Positions 339 through 22,296 of a DNA stretch of 23,009 bases are shown here, in pieces; position 1 is the stretch's first letter; every line of letters begins with the position of its first letter. The position numbers were made by a program, and so were the translations under genes. Source of the stretch: a virus; the UHGV virus genome UHGV-0387053. The stretch is one strand, 5' to 3'. The notes below the pieces were generated by a model. It did not search any database. It had not been told where the DNA came from and worked only from the letters and a program-made list of their open reading frames with translations.

Positions 339-1085
339 ATGGAAAGTAATATCAAAGGGTTAGTTGCCGCCGGGCATGAGATGGCTTCGGAACTGAAAGC
401 AGAATGTGGTGCCGTTGATATGCGCAGTGTGGCAAAGCTGATCAGCGATTTGGCAACGCAACTGGAAGTGCAACTGGTGCGTGCTAATGCGCTGGCCGAA
501 GACCACCAGAGAGCGATTGAGTCAATTAAGCAGGCTGATTCGGCTGTTAAGTTGGCACACGAGAAGTTTTCGGCGCTGGCGGCGGAGAATGCGGGGCTTA
601 AGGCCTTCAAAACCGCCGTTTATCAGCAGATGGGCGTCGGATGTGATGCTCCTGAATTCTCCATTACGACAGGTTTGAGTAACTTACGTCGTTTTGCTGA
701 CACACTCCACGCCATTGAACGTGAGTTCTTTACCAAAGAGCTACCTGATGAAGAGCACGAAGGCGAAACATTCAATGAATGTCCACTTAGCTGGGGAATG
801 AGCGTCGAACAGTACGTTTCCGAGTTTCGCAAATGCCTTGCTGAAATTCGTTCGGAAGCACGCAACGAGGGGATTAACTATACCGCCAGCCGTCTTGCTG
901 CTGCTTTCAACCACGGATTTATCAATAAGTCTTTACGTGAAGTTTTCGACGTTACGCGCATGATTCTGTCAGCGAAAGAAGAGTTGGCTAATGAACCGCA
1001 CCCGATTGATGGCCTGTCCGGTGAATATGCGGAGAAATCCCTTGAAGAATGGGCGGAACAGATTCGCAAAGGAGCTGACAAGTGA
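339..1085 (+). CDS. Hypothetical phage protein, helical/coiled-coil-rich N-terminal half
   Basis: 248-aa ORF; GAGGGT 4 nt upstream of ATG 339; stop TGA 1083-1085 overlaps the next start. No motif recognised with confidence. Confidence 0.65.
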   Translation: MESNIKGLVAAGHEMASELKAECGAVDMRSVAKLISDLATQLEVQLVRANALAEDHQRAIESIKQADSAVKLAHEKFSALAAENAGLKAFKTAVYQQMGVGCDAPEFSITTGLSNLRRFADTLHAIEREFFTKELPDEEHEGETFNECPLSWGMSVEQYVSEFRKCLAEIRSEARNEGINYTASRLAAAFNHGFINKSLREVFDVTRMILSAKEELANEPHPIDGLSGEYAEKSLEEWAEQIRKGADK

Positions 1086-1492
1086 AGAAGATGATTTTTG
1101 TGGCGGCATTGCTGACCATTACCCAACAGGCGCAGGCTTCAGCAGTTATTGTGGCATCTACCGCCGCGACCACGGCTGCTGTAGCTGCTGCGAACTCTGC
1201 GAATATCGCAAACCAACAGTCACAGCGTGCTGCCAATGCATCAGCCAGCGTTCACCCAATCGCCATTAAGACCGGCAAGAAAAATATAGGTTTCATAACA
1301 TGCGGCAAACGTTCTGACGAGGCTGTAGGTTCACTTGGATGTACGGTATATGGGGGTAGTGAGAATAGAGAAATTCCATGGAAAACGTGGCCCGGATATG
1401 TTCTCGGCTCGAAGCTCCCTGCCAGCTATGAAGTAAACGCCGTATCGTTTGATCACTATAACGGCGTGGCAACGGTCTATTTTGCATATTGA
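1082..1492 (+). CDS. Putative secreted protein with signal peptide
   Basis: GTG start at 1082 with AAGGAG 7 nt upstream; overlaps the previous stop. N-terminus MKKMIFVAALLTITQQAQA looks like a Sec signal peptide, followed by an Ala/Thr-rich segment. Confidence 0.6.
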   Translation: MKKMIFVAALLTITQQAQASAVIVASTAATTAAVAAANSANIANQQSQRAANASASVHPIAIKTGKKNIGFITCGKRSDEAVGSLGCTVYGGSENREIPWKTWPGYVLGSKLPASYEVNAVSFDHYNGVATVYFAY

Positions 1493-2410: not shown

Positions 2411-2741
2411 ATCAGCAGCAGAGCGCAAAGCCGCTCAGAGAGCCAGACAAGCTGAATCCGGTGTGCGTAAGCTGGAAATTGTGCTTGATGCTCAGGAAAT
2501 TGAAATGCTGGAGCGTAACTGTGCCACGCGTCGCCCCGGGCGTGTGCCTTACGAATTTGGTGAGTATATTGCGTTACTTATCCGCCAGGATGATGCTCGC
2601 GTGCACGGGCGTATAAAATCGATCAGCAGAAAACGTTGCGGTAAGTGCGGCGAGATAGTTCCTGTGAATTCATGCCCGTGTAATGGTGACTCGCAATGCT
2701 GGGTGACCAAAGGCTGGCATGAAACGAAATTAATAGTGTGA
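2403..2741 (+). CDS. Small putative DNA-binding protein: RHH-like N-terminal region plus C-terminal Cys-rich zinc-ribbon-like motif
   Basis: ATG 2403 overlaps the previous stop by 8 nt. Residues KLEIVLDAQEIEMLER...YEFGEYIALLIRQ fit a strand-helix-helix pattern; C-terminus has CGKCGEIVPVNSCPCNGDSQC. Stop TGA 2739-2741 lies inside the palindrome GTGACATGTCAC. Confidence 0.55.
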   Translation: MAKSAAERKAAQRARQAESGVRKLEIVLDAQEIEMLERNCATRRPGRVPYEFGEYIALLIRQDDARVHGRIKSISRKRCGKCGEIVPVNSCPCNGDSQCWVTKGWHETKLIV

Positions 2742-2749
2742 CATGTCAC
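2738..2749. promoter_or_regulatory. 12-bp perfect palindrome GTGACATGTCAC (copy 1), candidate operator or recombination site
   Basis: Read directly from sequence; an identical 12-mer recurs at 22760-22771. Overlaps the stop codon of the 2403-2741 gene and lies about 110 bp upstream of terminase small subunit. Confidence 0.5.
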
Positions 2750-2790
2750 GAGTAGATTATGCATGATGAATTTGATGGGTTTTGAATACT

Positions 2791-2816
2791 GCCGCCAACT
2801 ATGGCGGCTTTATTTT
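2791..2816 (+). terminator. Intrinsic-terminator-like hairpin plus T-tract in the leader upstream of terminase small subunit
   Basis: GCCGCC-aactat-GGCGGC followed by TTTATTTT. Position resembles a lambda tR'-type read-through terminator, but that role is inference. Confidence 0.45.
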
Positions 2817-2822
2817 GCATGG

Positions 2823-2852
2823 TACTATTACCACAACGGTAACTATTACCAC
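2823..2852. repeat. Two direct copies of ACTATTACCAC 18 bp apart, between the hairpin and the terminase small subunit start
   Basis: 11-mer at 2824-2834 and 2842-2852, seen in sequence. Could be terminase or regulator recognition repeats; function unknown. Confidence 0.4.
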
Positions 2853-2859
2853 GGTGGTT

Positions 2860-3456
2860 ATGATGCCTGCTGAACCTAAAACCTATAAACGCAAATCAAC
2901 GCAATTTAAGCCACTAACAGCAATGCAGGAGGCTTATTGCCAGTCATACATCAAAACGCCTGAAAACCAGACTCAGGCAGCGATTAACGCAGGATTCTCC
3001 CCAAATACAGCGGCAGTTAAAGCCAGTGTCATGATGCGCGATGAACGCATTCAAAAACGGATTGCCGAGTTGATGGAGGAGCGCAACAAACGAATGCGCG
3101 TCAGTGCTGATTACGTTCTCATGCGCCTGGTGGAGATCGACCAGATGGACGTGATCGACATCCTCAACGACGATGGGAGCCTTAAACCAATCCGTGAGTG
3201 GCCGAAAATCTGGCGCACTACGCTTAGTGGCTTTGATCTGTCATCGACCATCATGAACATGAACGAGGATTCGATAGAGACAATCCTCAAAAAAATTAAA
3301 TGGCCTGACAAGGTGAAGAACCTTGAGCTGATTGGTAAGCATGTTGATGTCAACGCGTTCAAAGAACGTCTGGATGTTAATGTGAATGTGACAATTGCTG
3401 ATCGCATAGCAGCAGCCAGGAAGCGACTCAAAGAACGTCAGGATGGTAATCAGTGA
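2860..3456 (+). CDS. Terminase small subunit
   Basis: ATG at 2860 or 2863 after GGTGG; the TTG 2782 start runs through the hairpin and is rejected. Segment YCQSYIKTPENQTQAAINAGFSPNTAAVKASVMMRDERIQKRI resembles terminase small-subunit families; sits immediately upstream of, and overlaps, the large subunit. Confidence 0.75.
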   Translation: MMPAEPKTYKRKSTQFKPLTAMQEAYCQSYIKTPENQTQAAINAGFSPNTAAVKASVMMRDERIQKRIAELMEERNKRMRVSADYVLMRLVEIDQMDVIDILNDDGSLKPIREWPKIWRTTLSGFDLSSTIMNMNEDSIETILKKIKWPDKVKNLELIGKHVDVNAFKERLDVNVNVTIADRIAAARKRLKERQDGNQ

Positions 3457-4922
3457 CAGATACAGCGTTATCTCCTGAAGAGCAGTTGATCGAGGATATT
3501 GCAGGGTTCACTCACGATCCGCTTGGCTATGCCCTCTATGCGTTCCCGTGGGGGGAAGAGGGGACTGAACTGGCACATGCCACCGGCCCACGTCAGTGGC
3601 AGGCTGATGCGTTCCGAGAGATACGTGATCACCTGCAGAATCCAGAGACGCGCTATCAGCCGCTTATGCTGGCACGCGCTTCTGGTCACGGTATTGGTAA
3701 ATCCGCATTCATCTCAATGCTGATCAACTGGGGCATGTCCACTTGCGAGGATTGTAAGGTCGTGGTGACCGCCAACACCGACAACCAGCTACGAACGAAG
3801 ACCTGGCCGGAAATTATCAAGTGGTCGAACCTTGCTATCACGAAAGACTGGTTTACCTGTACCGCTACCGCGATGTACAGCAATGATCCTGGACACGACA
3901 AGCGGTGGCGAGCTGACGCAATACCCTGGTCTGAGCACAACACTGAGGCATTCGCCGGACTACACAACGAGCGCAAACGCATCATCGTGGTATTCGATGA
4001 AGCGTCGAACATTGCGGATCTGGTGTGGGAAGTTGCCGAGGGTGCGCTAACGGACGAAGACACTGAGATTATCTGGGTGGCGTTCGGAAACCCGACGCGT
4101 AATACCGGACGTTTCCGCGAATGTTTCCGCAAATATAAACACCGCTGGAAAACTGCGCAGATTGACAGCCGGACGGTGGAAGGCACCAACAAACAGCAGT
4201 TGCAGAAATGGGTTGATGACTACGGGGAAGACAGCGACTTCGTTAAAATCCGTGTGCGCGGCATATTCCCTGATGCATCTGAATTGCAGTTTATCCCTAC
4301 CGGTCTTACTGACGAGGCAATGAAACGGGTGGTAACTGCTGCGCAGGTGGCACATGCTCCGGTGATAATCGGCGTTGACCCTGCATACTCCGGTGTTGAT
4401 GACGCGGTGATATACCTGCGGCAGGGGCTGCACAGTAAGGTGCTGTGGACCGGCAACAAGACCACTGACGATCTGATTATGGCAAAGCGTATCGCTGACT
4501 TTGAAGACCAGTATCAGGCTGACGCGGTGTTCATCGACTTCGGTTACGGTACCGGGCTGAAGTCAATCGGTGACGGTTGGGGGCGCACATGGCAACTTGT
4601 TCCGTTCGGTGGCGCGTCTACTGACCCGCAGATGCTCAACAAGCGTGGGGAGATGTTCAACTCATGCAAGACATGGCTGAGGCTGGGCGGCATGCTGGAT
4701 GACCAGGAAACTGCAGACGACCTGTCGGCGGCAGAGTACAAAGTTCGCGTGGACGGTAAAATCGTTATCGAACCGAAGGAAGATATCAAAGAACGACTTG
4801 GGCGTTCACCTGGTAAAGGCGATGCGCTACTGCTGACGTTTGCGTTCCCGGTAGCCAAGAAAACTAATGACCCACGGCAGCAGCAGGGCAGGGCTATAAC
4901 AGACTATGACCCATTTGAATGA
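3453..4922 (+). CDS. Terminase large subunit (ATPase/nuclease)
   Basis: 489 aa; GTG start overlaps the small-subunit stop. Walker A-like GHGIGKS and Walker B-like IIVVFDEAS are visible; size and position are typical. Confidence 0.85.
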   Translation: MTDTALSPEEQLIEDIAGFTHDPLGYALYAFPWGEEGTELAHATGPRQWQADAFREIRDHLQNPETRYQPLMLARASGHGIGKSAFISMLINWGMSTCEDCKVVVTANTDNQLRTKTWPEIIKWSNLAITKDWFTCTATAMYSNDPGHDKRWRADAIPWSEHNTEAFAGLHNERKRIIVVFDEASNIADLVWEVAEGALTDEDTEIIWVAFGNPTRNTGRFRECFRKYKHRWKTAQIDSRTVEGTNKQQLQKWVDDYGEDSDFVKIRVRGIFPDASELQFIPTGLTDEAMKRVVTAAQVAHAPVIIGVDPAYSGVDDAVIYLRQGLHSKVLWTGNKTTDDLIMAKRIADFEDQYQADAVFIDFGYGTGLKSIGDGWGRTWQLVPFGGASTDPQMLNKRGEMFNSCKTWLRLGGMLDDQETADDLSAAEYKVRVDGKIVIEPKEDIKERLGRSPGKGDALLLTFAFPVAKKTNDPRQQQGRAITDYDPFE

Positions 4923-4925
4923 TTT

Positions 4926-5774
4926 TTACTTTTGTGTTTTTGATTTTCTTTGATAGGTGGAATTTAAACCACCATTTATATTTACTAGAGGATTGTTCAA
5001 TAATGTACTGATTTCTGGATTGTTAATTCCAGTAACGCCAAATTTCTTTACGGACTCATTAAGGTCTTGTAATGATTTTAGACCTACAAACCCATTAGCA
5101 ATTGTATTATTTGTTGCCAAAGGAATGTTTTCCTTATAGGACTCATATTCGTTTTTTAAATTTTTGTGAGCTTTTTCTAGATTTTCTAGTTTAGATGTTG
5201 TTTCATCAATAACCTTAGATAATTCTAAAATACGAGCTTGTGCTGCGCGCAGTTCTGTCTCCCTCTCTTTCAATTCAGATGTGAGTTGTCCCATTCTGTC
5301 TTTTGAAAGAATTATTTCCTCTTTCATGTCTTGAATGTTTTTTTCAGCGCCTGTTTTTACTTTTTCGTAAGTAATGTCTTTTTTAGCCAGCAATCTCTGT
5401 AGCCGTGTTTCACGTTGTATTTTTCTTGCCTTCCGGTGGTTTTCGATTGAGTCATTATTATCAAGAGGTTTTGCTTGCCATACGTTAATGATATTGTTTA
5501 CCCATGGTAATAGGCAGCAGATAGTAATTACAGATAAGCATGGATAAAACATAACAGTTTTCCATGTGCTGTTATCTGAGATGTATGAAATTTTATCTAT
5601 TATATTTGATTTGCTAAAAAACAGATAAAGAAGTGATTTCCAGTTGAAGGCGCACCAGGACATAACAAAAGCACCAAGCACAGGGTTTTTGGCTCTATGC
5701 ACGGCAGTATTGGCAGTAGATAAAAACAGCTCTTTGAACGATTCGAACATACTAATTACCTTAAAGTTTTTCAT
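4926..5774 (-). CDS. AT-rich cargo gene: hypothetical membrane protein with two predicted TM helices, a central coiled coil and an Asn-rich C-terminus
   Basis: Minus-strand ATG at 5774 with AAAGG 7 nt upstream; the longer track ORF to 6032 is rejected because it crosses the terminator and tRNA. Hydrophobic segments PVLGAFVMSWCAFNWKSLLYLFF and VMFYPCLSVITICCLLPWV; heptad-like charged region KERETELRAAQARILELSKVIDETTSKLENLEKAH. Hand counts of sample lines give about 30% GC versus about 55% in flanking phage genes. Convergent with terminase, 3 bp from its stop. Confidence 0.7.
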   Translation of the reverse strand: MKNFKVISMFESFKELFLSTANTAVHRAKNPVLGAFVMSWCAFNWKSLLYLFFSKSNIIDKISYISDNSTWKTVMFYPCLSVITICCLLPWVNNIINVWQAKPLDNNDSIENHRKARKIQRETRLQRLLAKKDITYEKVKTGAEKNIQDMKEEIILSKDRMGQLTSELKERETELRAAQARILELSKVIDETTSKLENLEKAHKNLKNEYESYKENIPLATNNTIANGFVGLKSLQDLNESVKKFGVTGINNPEISTLLNNPLVNINGGLNSTYQRKSKTQK

Positions 5775-5809
5775 GATTATACCTTTAAGGTAATTTGTGG
5801 TCATCAGGC

Positions 5810-5835
5810 AAAAAAAATGCCCGGACGAACCGGGC
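5810..5835 (-). terminator. Intrinsic terminator for minus-strand transcription, downstream of the tRNA
   Basis: Plus strand reads AAAAAAAA-tgc-CCGG-acgaa-CCGGGC, so the minus-strand RNA is GCCCGG-uucgu-CCGGGC followed by a run of eight U. Confidence 0.6.
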
Positions 5836-5998
5836 GAACTGGAAGCAATGAGTTCTGCCTTCCGTGGCTGTACGGGTTTACAGCATGAAGTCATCGCAAT
5901 GGCGTCCTGCTGTAAAAAGGGCGGTGATAGTCCTTCAAGGGAAACCATCACCGCCAAGCACCTGGAACTTCTGGCATCACGGTCCTTAGGCGTGATTC

Positions 5999-6075
5999 TG
6001 GCGTGGCATGAAGGATTCGAACCTCCGACCAACCGCTTAGAAGGCGGTTGCTCTGTCCAACTGAGCTAATGCCAC
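5999..6075 (-). tRNA. tRNA-Arg (anticodon UCU)
   Basis: Minus-strand sequence GTGGCATTAGCTCAGTTGGACAGAGCAACCGCCTTCTAAGCGGTTGGTCGGAGGTTCGAATCCTTCATGCCACGCCA folds by hand into a cloverleaf: 7-bp acceptor stem, D arm GCTC/GAGC, anticodon stem ACCGC/GCGGT with loop CTTCTAA (U33, anticodon TCT, A37), T arm GGAGG-TTCGAAT-CCTTC, discriminator G and CCA end. Confidence 0.85.
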
Positions 6076-6502
6076 AACGCTGAGAGCACTTAGCCTGTTA
6101 AGGCGCCACACTTTGTCGCGGCTCCATAAATGCTCTCATCGTTGTACCCTCGTCTCTTCCGAGGCGTCACACCGAATCGCCGGGATGGTGAATCCCCGTG
6201 CGCGGAATAAAACCGCTCGACTTGCACATTCCGGCTACCTGGTTCGTTTGCCCGAGCAAGGGAGGGTGCCCCTTAAACATATCCAGACCGCTATCGGCGC
6301 ATGTGCCATACGCCGTACTGCTCAAAATAAAAGCTCACTCCACCTGTTCAATTTAACGACAAGCCAGTCAGGTTAATAACCGGAATGAACTCTTTGCTTA
6401 CCTTAAAGGTAATAATTCGTGCGTTAAATGTCAACTATCTACGATAAATAAATCATATGTGGTTAAATTGGTAATAATCTAATTGCGTACGGAGTCATTG
6501 AT

Positions 6503-6709
6503 ATGTGCATGGGTAGCTCACCATCAGTGCCTGCAACACCAGAAGTTCAGGCAGCACCACAGGAGCAGGATGCCGCTGTTGTTGATGCCCGCGACGAAGA
6601 AACACGTCGCCGTCGCGCTGCTGCTGGTCGTAGTTCTACGCTGCTTACCGGTTCTCAGGGCGACACATCAACCGCTAATACCAGCGGTAAAACGCTACTT
6701 GGTCAGTAA
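6503..6709 (+). CDS. Small virion protein, T7 gp7.3-like
   Basis: 68 aa, GGAG upstream. PEVQAAPQEQDAAVVDARDEETRRRRAAAGRSS resembles, from memory, T7 gp7.3 (...EVPQAAAQIVDVPEKE...ESGRKKARAGGKK...); it lies directly upstream of the portal gene as in T7. Confidence 0.6.
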   Translation: MCMGSSPSVPATPEVQAAPQEQDAAVVDARDEETRRRRAAAGRSSTLLTGSQGDTSTANTSGKTLLGQ

Positions 6710-6723
6710 CCGGAGTCATTGAA

Positions 6724-8403
6724 ATGGCGGAAACAACTAAAGAGCGATTGAACAAACAGTTCGCACAACTTGAAAGCGAGCGTCAGTCGTTCGAGCCGCA
6801 CTGGCGCGAGTTGAGTGATTACATCAACCCGCGTGGTTCCCGCTTTCTGACTTCTGAGGTCAACCGTAACGATCGACGCAATACACGCATTATTGATTCG
6901 ACCGGGACTATGGCGGCGCGCACTCTCGCCAGCGGCATGATGTCAGGCATCACAAGCCCCGCGCGTCCGTGGTTTCGCCTGGCTACGCCAGATCCTGAAA
7001 TGATGGATTATGGCCCTGTTAAGTTGTGGCTTGAGGCGGTGCAGAACCGCATGAACGATATGTTCAATAAGTCGAATCTCTATCAGTCTCTGCCGCAGTT
7101 ATACGGAAGCCTCGGCACATACAGCACTGGTGCAATGGCAGTGCTGGAGGATGACGAGGACATCATTCGCACAATGCCATTCCCGATAGGCAGTTACTAC
7201 CTGGCTAACTCACCTCGTGGCAGTGTGGACACCTGTTTTCGCAAGTTCTCTATGACTGTTCGTCAGCTTGTTCAGGAGTTCGGGCTAAATAACGTCAGCG
7301 AATCCGTAAAAAGCATGTGGGAAAGCGGCACCTACGAGAAGTGGATTGAAGTGATGCATTCGGTTTACCCGAACATTGACCGCGATACATCGAAGCTGGA
7401 TAGCAAGAACAAGCCATTCAAATCGGTTTATTACGAGGTTGGTGGCGATAACGACAAGTTGTTGCGTGAGTCCGGATTCGATGAGTTTCCAATTATGGCT
7501 CCGCGCTGGGAAGTTAACGGCGAAGATGTTTATGGATCATCATGCCCGGGTATGCTGGCGCTTGGACCTGTTAAGGCATTGCAGCTTCTCCAGAAGCGCA
7601 AGTCGCAGTTGATTGATAAAGCCACCAATCCGCCGATGGTTGCTCCGACTTCCCTCAAGAATCAGCGCGCCTCCCTTCTTCCTGGCGACATCACGTATAT
7701 CGATCAGATTACTGGTCAGGATGGTTTCAGGCCTGCTTATCTGGTTAACCCCAGTACAGCAGATCTGGTAGCAGACATTCAGGACACTCGCCAAATTATT
7801 AACAGCGCCTACTTTGTCGATCTGTTCATGATGTTGCAGAACATCAATACCCGCTCGATGCCTGTTGAAGCGGTGATCGAAATGAAAGAAGAAAAACTTC
7901 TGATGTTGGGGCCGGTTCTGGAGCGTCTGAACGACGAATGTCTTAATCCTCTCATTGACCGCGCTTTCTCGATGATGGTGCGTAAAAACATGCTGCCGCC
8001 ACCGCCTGACGCGATGGAAGGTATGCCCCTGAAGGTCGAATACATTTCCGTCATGGCTCAGGCGCAGAAGTCTATCGGCCTGTCCAGTCTGGCGTCTACG
8101 GTCAACTTCATTGGTCAACTTGCGCAAGCGAAACCAGAAGCTCTCGACAAACTCAACGTTGATCAGGCGATCGATGCATTCGCTGATATGTCCGGAGTGT
8201 CTCCAACCGTCATTGTTCCGCAGGAACAGGTTGAGCAGGCTCGCCAGCAACGGGCACAGCAACAACAGCAGCAACAAATGATGGCGATGGGGATGGCGGC
8301 GGCACAGGGGGCCAAGACGCTAAGCGAAGCTAAAACTTCGGATCCGAGTGTGTTGTCAGCTATGGCGAATGCAGTTAGTGGTCAGGGTGGGCAATCACAA
8401 TGA
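6724..8403 (+). CDS. Portal (head-tail connector) protein, T7 gp8-like
   Basis: 559 aa. C-terminal QQRAQQQQQQQMMAMGMAAAQGAK matches my memory of the T7 gp8 C-terminus (QQKMAQQSMQMGMDNGAAALAQGMAAQ); size and position are consistent. Confidence 0.85.
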   Translation: MAETTKERLNKQFAQLESERQSFEPHWRELSDYINPRGSRFLTSEVNRNDRRNTRIIDSTGTMAARTLASGMMSGITSPARPWFRLATPDPEMMDYGPVKLWLEAVQNRMNDMFNKSNLYQSLPQLYGSLGTYSTGAMAVLEDDEDIIRTMPFPIGSYYLANSPRGSVDTCFRKFSMTVRQLVQEFGLNNVSESVKSMWESGTYEKWIEVMHSVYPNIDRDTSKLDSKNKPFKSVYYEVGGDNDKLLRESGFDEFPIMAPRWEVNGEDVYGSSCPGMLALGPVKALQLLQKRKSQLIDKATNPPMVAPTSLKNQRASLLPGDITYIDQITGQDGFRPAYLVNPSTADLVADIQDTRQIINSAYFVDLFMMLQNINTRSMPVEAVIEMKEEKLLMLGPVLERLNDECLNPLIDRAFSMMVRKNMLPPPPDAMEGMPLKVEYISVMAQAQKSIGLSSLASTVNFIGQLAQAKPEALDKLNVDQAIDAFADMSGVSPTVIVPQEQVEQARQQRAQQQQQQQMMAMGMAAAQGAKTLSEAKTSDPSVLSAMANAVSGQGGQSQ

Positions 8404-21855: not shown

Positions 21856-22296
21856 CTATTCACAATTAGTGATGGCGTATGTATCAAATATATTGCCATC
21901 ACTAAATACATACCTATATTCAATCTCTCCGCCAAGGTGAATAAATGCTTTCATTTGCCTGTTGGAGCAAATGCTCGATTTTGAATAATTTCGCATTACA
22001 CTCTTTAATTTATTTTCTAAGGTTACATCACCGTTATAAACTTTTGATAAATAGCTGTTGTTGTAATTAAGATGCGCTACAACTAAAAGTTTGTTTAGTA
22101 TTGCATTTATTGAAACAATAGACATATTATCATTCAATTTTATGGGAAGTGACTTTCCTGCTTCTGATGCAATTTTGTTTGCATGTGCACACATATCCTC
22201 ATTTATTAAATTCTTAAAACATATGTCGTTTGCAAACGAAAAAATTGGTAGGATAAACAAAACGGTAGCTGTAATAGCGTGCATCGGCTTAATCAT
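21856..22296 (-). CDS. AT-rich cargo gene: secreted/periplasmic Cys-containing protein
   Basis: Minus-strand ORF; N-terminus MIKPMHAITATVLFILPIFSFA is signal-peptide-like (an alternative start 12 nt downstream is possible); cysteines spread through the mature part; visibly AT-rich; abuts the gp16-like stop. Confidence 0.6.
   Translation of the reverse strand: MIKPMHAITATVLFILPIFSFANDICFKNLINEDMCAHANKIASEAGKSLPIKLNDNMSIVSINAILNKLLVVAHLNYNNSYLSKVYNGDVTLENKLKSVMRNYSKSSICSNRQMKAFIHLGGEIEYRYVFSDGNIFDTYAITNCE
21866..21905. repeat. 11-bp perfect inverted repeat with 18-nt spacer (TTAGTGATGGC ... GCCATCACTAA)
   Basis: Seen in sequence 11 nt after the gp16-like stop, inside the 3' end of the convergent minus-strand gene. 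Operator-like or hairpin; no U-tract. Confidence 0.4.

What the first reader, a model, noticed from the sequence alone, without database searches (positions are those of the whole stretch)
4923..6075. AT-rich membrane/coiled-coil cargo gene with its own terminator and a tRNA-Arg(UCU), wedged between terminase and portal
The packaging-to-portal junction is normally tight in phage genomes. Here about 1.6 kb is interposed, from the terminase stop to the gp7.3-like start. It carries a minus-strand gene at roughly 30% GC (by hand count) encoding two TM helices, a long coiled coil and an Asn-rich tail, plus an intrinsic terminator and a tRNA-Arg(UCU). Opposite orientation, foreign composition and a membrane/coiled-coil architecture are the usual signature of a moron, for example a superinfection-exclusion or abortive-infection effector expressed from the prophage. 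I recognise no family for it.
Basis: partly seen in the sequence, partly recalled or inferred. Interest (0 to 1): 0.62.

Follow-up and report, generated by a model that had tools for sequence, protein, structure and literature searches.

The report
Swappable membrane gene in phage hotspot
Between the DNA-packaging and portal genes of an E. coli prophage lies a gene-swapping hotspot that in sister phages holds known anti-immunity "sponge" genes; here it holds an uncharacterised membrane-anchored coiled-coil protein whose promoter appears to be controlled by the phage repressor.

Summary
A 34% GC minus-strand gene lies at 4926-5774, with a likely true start at 5750 (274 aa). A tRNA-Arg(UCU) lies at 5999-6075. 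Both sit in the 1.58-kb gap between terL and portal of an epsilon15/phiV10-like (Uetakevirus) prophage.

The gap is a cargo hotspot across this phage group. In 80 slots from near-identical phages it holds:
- an Acb4-family anti-CBASS sponge homolog (35)
- this membrane/coiled-coil family, phrog_4780 (19, at least 6 alleles)
- phrog_4846 (17)
- a Tad2-like sponge and other genes (the rest)

The tRNA is present in 79 of 80.

The protein has a conserved two-helix membrane module, a conserved juxtamembrane helix and a recombinationally swapped C-terminal coiled coil and tail. No Pfam, PADLOC, PDB-sequence or fold match goes beyond coiled-coil noise.

Two points need correcting:
- The "own terminator" lies upstream of the gene and ends the tRNA transcript.
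- The gene's promoter -10 is overlapped by the phage operator palindrome TTACC-N5-GGTAA. That site occurs at 15 intergenic positions in a relative. This predicts silence in lysogens and expression with the lytic promoters.

My best reading is a membrane-sited phage-conflict factor (exclusion, abortive defence or counter-defence) with an untested mechanism.

The parts
3453..4922 (+). Large terminase subunit gene (terL), convergent with the cargo gene. Its last ~25 codons co-vary with the cargo allele.
   Evidence: ORF; annotated as terminase in relatives. Identity to the relative carrying the 272-aa allele is only ~57% over 4920-4836, against 80% or more further upstream.
4926..5750 (-). Cargo gene encoding a membrane-anchored coiled-coil protein. 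Probable true CDS of 274 aa. RefSeq calls 4926-5774, 282 aa (WP_000787770.1).
   Evidence: phrog_4780 E=5.8e-122. All homologs start at Met9. The -10 ends 1 nt before ATG 5774.
5478..5684 (-). Conserved membrane module. Hydrophobic helices at residues 31-53 and 73-99 (numbered from ATG 5774) with a short loop helix between them. Near-invariant across the wider family: R27, P31, W40, N44, W45, P78, P90.
   Evidence: Hydropathy; alignments A1 and A2; AlphaFold helices. Net charge is +6 in residues 101-140, which favours a cytoplasmic C-terminus.
5280..5471 (-). Conserved juxtamembrane helix (residues ~102-165, 'KPLDNNDSIENHRKA..TRLQRL.AK.DVTY.KVKTGAEK.IQ.MKE'). In the model it is continuous with TM2.
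   Evidence: Mean pairwise identity 81% across 41 homologs. The N-terminal-only AlphaFold model has a single helix over its residues 63-133, mean pLDDT 80.7.
4929..5279 (-). Swapped C-terminal module (residues ~166-282): distal coiled coil plus an Asn-rich, low-confidence tail ending in a basic K-rich tip.
   Evidence: Mean pairwise identity 18-22%, against 74-81% for the N-terminal part. DNA identity to the 272-aa allele is 95-100% at 5840-5420 and falls to ~40% at 5270-4920. pLDDT is below 55 from residue ~220.
5776..5804 (-). Predicted sigma-70 promoter of the cargo gene: -35 ATGACC (5804-5799), 17-nt spacer, -10 TATAAT (5781-5776).
   Evidence: 10 of 12 consensus matches, the best in the region. 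The architecture is conserved upstream of divergent alleles.
5779..5793 (.). Operator-like palindrome TTACCTTAAAGGTAT (read on the minus strand) overlapping the -10 and spacer of the cargo promoter.
   Evidence: 4 sites in the window against 0.37 expected; 15 against 0.59 expected in relative L171. Annotated as the repressor site in epsilon15. The exact core TACC-N5-GGTA lies upstream of 66 of 70 family loci, 19 of 19 family slots and 0 of 51 Acb4-like/phrog_4846 slots.
5810..5835 (-). Intrinsic terminator (GCCCGGTTCGTCCGGGC plus T8) downstream of the tRNA and upstream of the cargo gene. It marks the right edge of the variable cassette.
   Evidence: Conserved in phiV10, EC.W1-9 and epsilon15. 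Similarity to relatives with other cargo resumes at about window 5811.
5877..5955 (-). Two further conserved hairpins in the tRNA trailer: 5955-5920 (14-bp stem) and 5916-5877 (TTTACAGCA...TGCTGTAAA).
   Evidence: for the first; direct reading for the second. The block is invariant in alignment A3, including the Salmonella phages.
5999..6075 (-). Phage tRNA-Arg(UCU). It is a fixed feature of the slot, not part of this cargo.
   Evidence: ARAGORN and Rfam 70.9 bits. Present in 79 of 80 slots whatever the cargo. Absent from copies of the gene outside this slot.
6076..6396 (-). Conserved non-coding leader between the tRNA and the divergent control region. Function unknown.
   Evidence: Conserved in E. 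coli relatives, partly in Salmonella phages and with indels. RNA fold z = -2.5. No Rfam match.
6398..6412 (.). Perfect operator palindrome TTACCTTAAAGGTAA. It overlaps a candidate leftward promoter (TTGACA 6434-6429, 17 nt, TACCTT 6411-6406) that would drive the tRNA and promoter-less cargos. It also lies upstream of the head operon.
   Evidence: The equivalent site is annotated as repressor/IHF in epsilon15 and is invariant in A3. The leftward promoter is my own reading (inference).
6503..6709 (+). Small conserved protein (epsilon15 gp3 homolog, phrog_831), the first gene of the head operon.
6724..8403 (+). Portal protein gene.
   Evidence: PF12236 Head-tail_con on the homolog; annotated as portal.

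Best explanation
The 1.58-kb gap between terL and portal is the accessory-gene hotspot of epsilon15/phiV10-like (Uetakevirus) phages. It is a leftward unit made of a leader, a tRNA-Arg(UCU), trailer hairpins ending in a terminator, and then one swappable cargo gene that ends against terL.

In this window the cargo is a ~274-aa protein of an uncharacterised, widespread family (phrog_4780; no Pfam family). It has:
- an N-terminal amphipathic helix;
- a two-helix membrane hairpin with invariant polar residues;
- a conserved, positively charged juxtamembrane helix that continues from TM2 into the cytoplasm;
- a C-terminal coiled coil and tail that is exchanged wholesale between alleles by recombination.

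The sponge-type cargos begin directly after the terminator and have no promoter. This cassette carries its own sigma-70 promoter. The phage's repressor operator overlaps that promoter's -10.

From this I infer the following. The gene is off in a stable lysogen. It is switched on with the lytic promoters on infection or induction. It becomes constitutive where the repressor or the operator has been lost.

I also infer that it is a phage-conflict protein working at the cytoplasmic face of the inner membrane. It most likely excludes or aborts competing phages, with the conserved membrane and juxtamembrane module as anchor and effector and the swapped C-terminal module as the specificity determinant.

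Shown: anatomy, family, hotspot census, mosaicism, operator statistics and genomic contexts. Inferred: topology, regulation, and all of the function.
For: **Hotspot.**
- The window is a Uetakevirus prophage.
- 80 slots from phages with ~100% identical portal: 35 carry PF13876 homologs, 19 this family (alleles of 201, 246, 272, 282, 296 and 310 aa), 17 phrog_4846, and the rest others including a PF11195 Tad2-like gene. tRNA-Arg is present in 79 of 80.
- PF13876 is the Acb4 anti-CBASS sponge family and PF11195 is Tad2 (bioRxiv 10.1101/2024.12.30.630793 and 10.1101/2025.07.12.664507).

**Family.**
- phrog_4780 E=5.8e-122.
- 141 close homologs, none with a functional name.
- A profile search finds 326 cluster representatives at E<=1e-10.

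**Architecture.**

**Mosaicism.** N-terminal part 74-81% mean identity against 18-22% for the C-terminal part. The DNA breakpoint lies at ~5300.

**Operator.**
- 4 sites in the window against 0.37 expected. 15 in L171 against 0.59 expected, all intergenic, with pairs on both sides of the HTH_3 repressor gene.
- Annotated as the repressor site in epsilon15.
- The exact core palindrome overlaps the -10 upstream of 66 of 70 family loci (chance ~0.002 per locus). It is found in 19 of 19 family slots and 0 of 51 Acb4-like or phrog_4846 slots.

**Benefit to the host outside an intact phage.**
- An intact copy with a perfect operator-promoter persists in decayed prophage remnants at guaA in Pluralibacter and Atlantibacter.
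- A copy lies between lacI and a dehydrogenase gene in Cronobacter sakazakii, read on 24 contigs (index: 157 blocks of the collection).
- Copies lie in the nin region of lambdoid prophages of Klebsiella and Citrobacter, on the opposite strand. One still drags a 51-codon terL fragment. In these and the Cronobacter copy the left operator half-site has decayed but the -10 is kept.
- Distant relatives sit next to a DUF1778/GNAT toxin-antitoxin pair on Klebsiella plasmids.
Against: - No experiment and no homology link the protein to any activity.
- The only slot-mates with a known family are counter-defence sponges. This points at least as much to counter-defence as to exclusion.
- A gene repressed in the lysogen cannot protect the lysogen, which is the usual role of prophage exclusion genes. 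The single operator has one mismatch, so repression may be leaky, but this is unknown.
- The operator assignment rests on a database annotation plus my own statistics, not on binding data.
- Topology was judged only from hydropathy and the positive-inside rule. The first hydrophobic segment is marginal.
- C-terminal variability could partly reflect low constraint on a coiled-coil spacer rather than specificity. Against that, the sharp breakpoint argues for module exchange.
Confidence: 0.4

Rival explanations
1. Counter-defence acting at the membrane. The protein is made early after infection or induction and neutralises a membrane-sited host immune effector or sensor. Candidates are transmembrane effectors of CBASS, Thoeris or Pycsar, or Abi pores. 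It would then be an alternative to the signal sponges that occupy the same slot in sister phages. The variable C-terminus would track host targets.
For: - It occupies the same position as Acb4-family and Tad2-like genes.
- Its promoter is of the same operator-controlled type as the phage's lytic promoters.
- Mosaic C-termini fit an arms race.
Against: - Intact copies persist in decayed prophage remnants and in the Cronobacter chromosome. There a counter-defence gene would disarm or be useless to the host.
- In lambdoid prophages it keeps a promoter that has lost the operator, so it is probably expressed from the prophage.
- Unlike the sponges it is large, membrane-bound and carries its own promoter.
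Confidence: 0.25
2. One reading: a classical moron expressed constitutively from the prophage, giving the lysogen superinfection exclusion or abortive infection.
For: - AT-rich composition, opposite orientation, its own promoter, and presence or absence among close relatives.
- Membrane anchoring, as in known exclusion proteins (my knowledge of P22 SieA, T4 Imm and HK97 gp15).
- Retention in remnants and chromosomes.
Against: - The operator overlaps the -10 in 66 of 70 loci. It is of the same type as the sites that flank the repressor gene and head the other operons.
- No downstream terminator.
- No PADLOC, SieB or Imm Pfam match.
Confidence: 0.15
3. A lytic-cycle physiology accessory: a regulator of lysis timing (holin-, antiholin- or spanin-like) or an inhibitor of cell division or membrane energetics that improves burst size.
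For: - Predicted lytic-phase expression.
- Two membrane helices with a charged C-terminal end, which superficially resembles class II holins.
- Membrane-anchored coiled coils occur in division regulators such as EzrA (my knowledge).
Against: - It is not in a lysis cassette. At 274 aa it is far larger than class II holins.
- No ORF of 40 aa or more is listed in any frame of the gene's own (minus) strand inside the gene, so there is no embedded o-spanin candidate of that size.
- The charge distribution places the coil in the cytoplasm.
- It is absent from about three quarters of near-identical phages.
- It is retained with an active-looking promoter in chromosomes and remnants, where a lysis or division toxin would be harmful.
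Confidence: 0.1
4. No selected function: an AT-rich hitch-hiking ORF carried along by recombination at the hotspot.
For: No known domain. The C-terminal third is modelled with low confidence.
Against: - The N-terminal 165 residues are 74-81% identical across genera, with dozens of invariant positions.
- 326 cluster representatives at E<=1e-10.
- The promoter, operator and Shine-Dalgarno architecture is conserved.
- Intact reading frames in every context examined.
Confidence: 0.03

Closest known systems
Acb4 (PF13876) and Tad2 (PF11195) sponge genes in the same slot of sister Uetakeviruses, e.g. phiV10p03 and epsilon15p50
   Same: Exactly the same position and orientation, ending against terL and downstream of the tRNA-Arg trailer. 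They are mutually exclusive with this gene and are exchanged by recombination in the same flanks.
   Different: They are small (98-135 aa) soluble proteins of 47-49% GC. They have no promoter of their own: the ATG lies within 20 nt of the terminator T-run. The gene here is 274 aa, membrane-anchored, 34% GC and has its own operator-controlled promoter. There is no sequence similarity.
Morons of lambdoid phages, including the membrane exclusion protein HK97 gp15 (my knowledge of Juhala/Hendrix and Cumby et al.)
   Same: An extra gene between essential genes, with deviant base composition and its own promoter, present in only some relatives. The product is membrane-located.
   Different: Morons are defined by expression from the repressed prophage and by a promoter-terminator pair. 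Here the promoter carries the repressor operator and no downstream terminator is evident. No homology.
Inner-membrane superinfection-exclusion proteins T4 Imm and P22 SieA/SieB
   Same: Small phage-encoded inner-membrane proteins that act on incoming phage. T4 Imm is made during lytic growth, which matches the timing predicted here.
   Different: No sequence match: Pfam finds no Imm or SieB family. Those proteins lack a long cytoplasmic coiled coil and a modular C-terminus.
The membrane-anchored coiled-coil (DUF4041) defence protein found by functional selection in E. coli (Vassallo et al. 2022, PMC9519451)
   Same: A single-gene, prophage-associated architecture of membrane anchor plus central coiled coil.
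   Different: That protein ends in a DNA-binding/cleavage domain. This one has no enzymatic domain in any of 85 distant members and no PADLOC match beyond coiled-coil regions.
The TERi locus of Listeria comK prophages (bioRxiv 10.1101/2025.02.27.640495)
   Same: A conserved control region followed by alternating, unrelated cargo genes at one prophage position.
   Different: A different phage group, and small soluble proteins that target terminase and are expressed from the prophage. No homology. Here, adjacency to terL is positional only.

Membership tests
PHROG family phrog_4780 (unknown function) | Full-length match to the family profile | tested here: met
   E=5.8e-122, residues 9-282 against profile positions 1-269 of 275. 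The alleles of 272 and 201 aa also match.
Moron (Hendrix/Juhala sense) | Base composition different from neighbouring phage genes | tested here: met
   33.8% GC against 52-54% for the neighbours. The gene is 35-40% GC in hosts with 50-61% GC flanks.
Moron (Hendrix/Juhala sense) | Present in some but not other closely related phages | tested here: met
   19 of 80 slots among phages with ~100% identical portal. About 61 of 5,426 complete E. coli genomes carry the family.
Moron (Hendrix/Juhala sense) | Own promoter and own downstream terminator | tested here: inconclusive
   A promoter is predicted (10 of 12 matches, conserved). No convincing terminator follows the stop. The strong terminators lie upstream.
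Moron (Hendrix/Juhala sense) | Transcribed from the repressed prophage | not testable with these tools
   The sequence argues against it, because the operator overlaps the -10. Expression data are needed.
Known anti-phage defence systems (PADLOC-DB v2.0.0) | Match to a defence-protein model outside low-complexity or coiled-coil regions | tested here: not met
   The only hits are weak (E>=3e-5) and fall on the coiled-coil arms of LmuB, JetC, DndD and DruC. The same holds for 85 distant members.
Nucleotide-signal sponges (Acb4 PF13876, Tad2 PF11195) | Match to the Pfam family | tested here: not met
   No hit for this protein. The slot-mates do match: phiV10p03 to PF13876 at E=6.3e-35, and the L026 cargo to PF11195 at E=1.9e-24.
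Two-component spanin (i-spanin) | A partner o-spanin lipoprotein gene embedded in, overlapping or adjacent to the gene, and a position in the lysis cassette | tested here: not met
   No ORF of 40 aa or more is listed in any frame of the gene's own (minus) strand inside the gene. The neighbours are terL and a tRNA.
Two-component spanin (i-spanin) | A single N-terminal TM helix with a periplasmic coiled coil | tested here: inconclusive
   Two hydrophobic helices and a +6 charge after TM2 favour a cytoplasmic coil. No dedicated topology predictor or experiment was available.
Class II holin | A small (<150 aa) two-TM protein encoded next to an endolysin | tested here: not met
   274 aa. It is not next to lysis genes.
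Superinfection-exclusion families in Pfam (T4 Imm, SieB) | Sequence match to the family | tested here: not met
   The Pfam scan at E<=1 returns only coiled-coil families.
tRNA-Arg(UCU) | Cloverleaf with a UCU anticodon and a score above the Rfam gathering threshold | tested here: met
   ARAGORN reports anticodon tct. RF00005 scores 70.9 bits against a threshold of 29.

The most novel reading that the evidence does not exclude
The protein is a new kind of counter-defence factor that works on the effector rather than the signal. It would be a membrane-anchored, modular coiled-coil protein made on derepression that blocks membrane-acting immune effectors or sensors. Phages would swap it in as an alternative to the Acb4 and Tad2 signal sponges at the same locus. 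Its conserved membrane module would plug or sequester the effector, and the exchangeable C-terminal module would set which host system is targeted.
Probability: 0.15. Interest if true: 0.85.

Novelty: new variant of a known kind. Interest (0 to 1): 0.55.

Why it matters
I found no paper describing the terL-portal gap of epsilon15/phiV10-like prophages as a hotspot. It appears to be a compact, easily recognised locus where near-identical phages exchange conflict genes, and two known immune-signal sponge families are among them.

Two of the three commonest occupants have no known function: this membrane coiled-coil family and phrog_4846. That makes them strong candidates for new anti-immune or exclusion activities.

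The membrane family is large, with 326 cluster representatives at E<=1e-10, and is absent from Pfam. Its operator-bearing promoter gives a clear, testable prediction about when it is expressed.

The locus also shows a phage in which a single palindrome sits at apparently every transcription unit. This is useful for engineering and for predicting which accessory genes are lysogenic and which are lytic.

Tried and rejected
**Searches that gave nothing useful**
- Pfam, NCBIfam and PADLOC on this protein and three slot-mates, and on 85 distant family members. For the membrane family, only coiled-coil noise.
- A profile of 41 homologs against PDB sequences. The best E-value was 0.057, all on coiled coils.
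- AlphaFold model of the N-terminal module alone (pLDDT 80.7) searched by Foldseek against PDB. Nothing below E=3.
- The afdb50 library was not available.
- The scan of genome contigs with the family alignment returned nothing usable.
- A second word-indexed protein search with the distant alignment only re-found the close set.
- Literature search by protein accession or locus tag: no paper.
- Papers on Uetakevirus and on defence hotspots do not describe this slot.
- Rfam in permissive mode over 5775-6520 found only the tRNA.

**Ideas rejected**
- The tRNA as a helper specific to this cargo. The cargo is rich in AGA (5 of 11 Arg codons). However, the tRNA is present in 79 of 80 slots whatever the cargo, and the tail and ejection genes also use AGA.
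- The terminator belonging to the gene.
- A spanin or holin identity (see the membership rows).
- Weak PADLOC hits to LmuB and PD-Lambda-1 as evidence of defence. They align only to coiled-coil stretches.
Full report
**What is there**

The window is part of an epsilon15/phiV10-like (genus Uetakevirus) prophage of E. coli. The flanks of the finding match phiV10, TL-2011b, ZX5 and many E. coli chromosomes at 95-99% identity, while the middle does not.

A relative 98.7% identical over window 4700-6800 (E. coli AB104, locus L171) is integrated beside guaA. Its gene order is integrase, early genes, an HTH repressor, replication genes, nin-like genes, terS, terL, the slot, then the head and tail genes.

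In the window, terL ends at 4922. The next + strand gene, a 68-aa homolog of epsilon15 gp3, starts at 6503. Reading leftward on the minus strand, the 1,580 bp between them hold:
- a 320-nt conserved non-coding stretch (6396-6076);
- a tRNA-Arg(UCU) at 6075-5999;
- two hairpins (5955-5920 and 5916-5877);
- a canonical intrinsic terminator (5835-5819 plus T8);
- a promoter-like site: -35 at 5804-5799 and a perfect TATAAT at 5781-5776;
- an ORF running to 4926.

**Checking the observation**

- The gene is 33.8% GC, against 52-54% for its neighbours.
- The protein has two hydrophobic helices: residues 31-53 (marginal, with invariant N44, W45 and K46) and 73-99 (strong).
- It has one uninterrupted heptad register from residue 109 to 216.
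- AlphaFold gives a helix at 142-216 with pLDDT above 90.
- The tail is Asn-rich and modelled with low confidence.

Three corrections are needed.
- The terminators sit between the tRNA and the gene, so they end the tRNA transcript. The gene has no evident terminator and stops 3 nt from the convergent terL stop.
- The -10 box ends one base before ATG 5774, and all 40 aligned homologs begin at the equivalent of Met9. The true start is therefore probably ATG 5750 behind an AAGG Shine-Dalgarno, giving 274 aa rather than the annotated 282.
- The label 'gp7.3-like' for the downstream 68-aa protein could not be confirmed. It matches phrog_831, of unknown function.

**The slot is a hotspot, and its known occupants are anti-immune sponges**

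I fetched 80 IMG/VR loci encoding a portal about 100% identical to the window's. I then cut out the terL-to-gp3 interval in the 79 where both ends were found, and added the window's own slot. The interval ranges from 0.8 to 2.0 kb.

The longest minus-strand ORFs fall into unrelated families:
- 35 are homologs of phiV10p03 (65-99% identical), which matches Pfam PF13876 at E=6.3e-35.
- 19 belong to the membrane coiled-coil family, in at least six length alleles.
- 17 belong to phrog_4846.
- The rest are rare, including one PF11195 Tad2-like protein at E=1.9e-24.

Two preprints identify PF13876 as the Acb4 anti-CBASS sponge family and PF11195 as Tad2.

The tRNA-Arg is present in 79 of 80 slots whatever the cargo. 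It is therefore a fixed part of the slot.

The cargo is rich in AGA: 5 of 11 Arg codons here, and 25-70% AGA/AGG across the six alleles checked. However, tail and ejection genes use AGA too. I reject a cargo-specific role for the tRNA.

**The protein family**

The product matches phrog_4780 at E=5.8e-122, with weaker matches to phrog_13369 and phrog_35327.

Nothing in Pfam, NCBIfam or PADLOC matches beyond coiled-coil noise. This holds for this protein and for 85 distant relatives.

A word-indexed search found 141 close homologs in Enterobacteriaceae, none with a functional name. An exhaustive profile search found 1,830 cluster representatives at E<=0.001 and 326 at E<=1e-10. The weakest of these may be coiled-coil matches.

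Residues 9-165 are 74-81% identical on average across 41 homologs from many genera. Dozens of positions are invariant. Across the wider family R27, P31, W40, N44, W45, P78 and P90 are near-invariant.

From residue ~166 the alleles are unrelated, at 18-22% identity. At the DNA level the window and the 272-aa allele are 95-100% identical from 5840 to 5420. Identity falls to ~40% from 5270 to 4920. The divergent tract extends into the last ~25 codons of terL. The C-terminal module is therefore exchanged by recombination.

A model of the N-terminal module alone (pLDDT 80.7) shows TM2 continuing as one helix into the juxtamembrane region. Fold searches against PDB and viral models found nothing specific.

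The net charge of +6 just after TM2 suggests that the stalk is cytoplasmic. This is an inference, not a test.

**The promoter carries the phage operator**

The epsilon15 GenBank record annotates ATTACC-N5-GGTAAT palindromes upstream of terS and gp3 as lysogeny repressor sites.

The pattern TTACC-N5-GGTAA, allowing one mismatch, occurs 4 times in the window against 0.37 expected. The sites are:
- two upstream of terS;
- one at 6398-6412, upstream of gp3;
- one at 5779-5793.

In L171 it occurs 15 times against 0.59 expected, and every site is intergenic:
- two between the divergent HTH_3 repressor gene and the rightward early genes;
- two on the other side of the repressor gene;
- others before the integrase gene, the nin-like genes, terS, gp3 and the BRO-N gene.

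Many of these sites run into a TAATAAT- or TAATAT-type -10.

The site at 5779-5793 reads TTACCTTAAAGGTATAAT on the gene's strand, so its right half-site is fused to the cargo promoter's perfect -10.

This arrangement is specific to the family:
- The exact core TACC-N5-GGTA lies just upstream of 66 of 70 family loci from IMG/VR. That is 32 of 36 distinct upstream sequences, and the other four differ by one base. Chance is about 0.002 per locus.
- It is present in 19 of 19 family slots in the census.
- It is present in 0 of 35 Acb4-like slots and 0 of 16 phrog_4846 slots.

The promoter-less cargos begin within about 20 nt of the terminator's T-run, with only a Shine-Dalgarno sequence. They must be read through from upstream. 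A candidate leftward promoter (TTGACA, 17 nt, TACCTT) overlaps the 6398-6412 operator. This is my own reading.

The straightforward prediction is that the cargo promoter is repressed in a stable lysogen and fires with the other phage promoters on infection or induction. It rests on annotation and statistics, not on binding data.

**Where else the gene occurs**

About 59 of the 70 IMG/VR loci lie in the same terL-portal slot of phages whose portal is 56-100% identical to the window's. The remaining contexts are informative:
- **Lambdoid prophages of Klebsiella and Citrobacter.** The gene sits in the nin region on the opposite strand. The Klebsiella copy still carries 51 codons of a terL 3' end and a decayed copy of the slot terminator. 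It was therefore exported from the Uetakevirus slot.
- **Prophage remnants beside guaA.** In Pluralibacter and Atlantibacter, decayed remnants keep the gene intact with a perfect operator-promoter. terL is reduced to 37 codons or is broken.
- **Cronobacter sakazakii chromosome.** An intact copy lies between lacI and a dehydrogenase gene on 24 contigs read (index: 157 blocks of the collection).
- **Klebsiella plasmids.** Distant relatives lie on a phage-plasmid and next to a DUF1778/GNAT toxin-antitoxin pair on F-type plasmids.

In the lambdoid copies examined (Klebsiella, Citrobacter) and the Cronobacter copy the palindrome is degraded, while the -10 is kept. The gene stays at 35-40% GC in every context examined.

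About 61 of 5,426 complete E. coli genomes carry the family, and 18 carry this allele.

**Interpretation**

With high confidence, this is one of several interchangeable cargos in a conflict-gene hotspot. It encodes a real, selected, membrane-anchored coiled-coil protein with a conserved N-terminal module and a swappable C-terminal module.

With moderate confidence, it belongs to the phage's repressor regulon.

What it does is not shown.

Two lines of evidence pull in different directions. Its slot-mates and its predicted timing suggest counter-defence. Its survival in remnants, chromosomes and foreign prophages, with a promoter that looks constitutive, suggests a benefit to the cell such as exclusion or abortive defence.

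I rank the readings as follows:
- exclusion or defence deployed on derepression: 0.40;
- membrane-level counter-defence: 0.25;
- the classical prophage-expressed moron: 0.15;
- a lysis or division accessory: 0.10;
- no function: 0.03.

**Novelty and score**

Variable accessory slots and morons are well known. Acb4 and Tad2 are known. This protein family already exists as an unannotated PHROG.

What seems new is:
- the recognition of this particular hotspot;
- the alternation of a large membrane protein with signal sponges;
- the family-specific operator-promoter.

I therefore rate it a new variant of a known kind, with interest 0.55.

Noticed in passing
window 2828-2842, 2846-2860, 5779-5793, 6398-6412; L171 (15 sites): One palindrome, TTACC-N5-GGTAA, sits in front of apparently every transcription unit of this prophage type. 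These include integrase, both sides of the repressor gene, the nin-like genes, terS, the head operon and the BRO-N anti-repressor region. The late genes therefore seem to be directly repressor-controlled, rather than controlled through a late activator or antiterminator.
   Followed up: partly
window 6076-6396 (minus strand): A ~320-nt non-coding stretch between the head-operon control region and the tRNA. It is conserved in E. coli relatives and partly in Salmonella phages, with indels that rule out the + strand ORFs annotated there (e.g. PhiV10p04). It folds better than shuffles (z = -2.5) and has no Rfam match. It may be a leader or a small RNA of the leftward tRNA unit.
   Followed up: partly
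window 5810-5955 (minus strand); slots of L023, L026, L036: Three conserved hairpins follow the tRNA. The Acb4-like, Tad2-like and phrog_4846 cargos start within about 20 nt of the last hairpin's T-run and have no promoter. The 'terminator' must therefore be leaky, or act as a processing or stability element.
   Followed up: partly
window 4836-4920 (terL 3' end): The last ~25 codons of terL diverge together with the cargo's C-terminal module (57% identity against 80% or more upstream). Exported copies of the gene drag terL 3' fragments with them (Klebsiella lambdoid prophage, Pluralibacter remnant). This is probably a recombination tract, but a functional link to the terminase C-terminus was not excluded.
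   Followed up: partly
window 21856-22296 (minus strand): A second AT-rich (32% GC) opposite-strand ORF of 146 aa with a signal-peptide-like N-terminus (phrog_8772, no Pfam hit). It lies directly after the 1129-aa internal virion protein gene. It may mark another cargo slot.
   Followed up: partly
window 5750-5774: The RefSeq/PGAP start of WP_000787770.1 (ATG 5774) is probably 8 codons too far upstream. It lies between the predicted -10 and the expected transcription start, and no homolog extends that far.
   Followed up: yes
slots of L036, L037 and 15 others (IMG/VR): phrog_4846, an acidic ~140-aa protein, is the third commonest occupant of the sponge slot (17 of 80). It has no Pfam or PDB-sequence match. 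By position it is a candidate new anti-immune protein.
   Followed up: partly
L015 (epsilon15) 2540-3045: Epsilon15 itself lacks the tRNA-Arg that nearly all relatives carry at this position. Its record annotates an RNase III site there instead.
   Followed up: no
window 1082-1492: A 136-aa ORF in the nin-like region with a signal-peptide-like N-terminus (MKKMIFVAALLTITQQAQASA). It matches phrog_8805 (unknown function) and has no Pfam hit.
   Followed up: no
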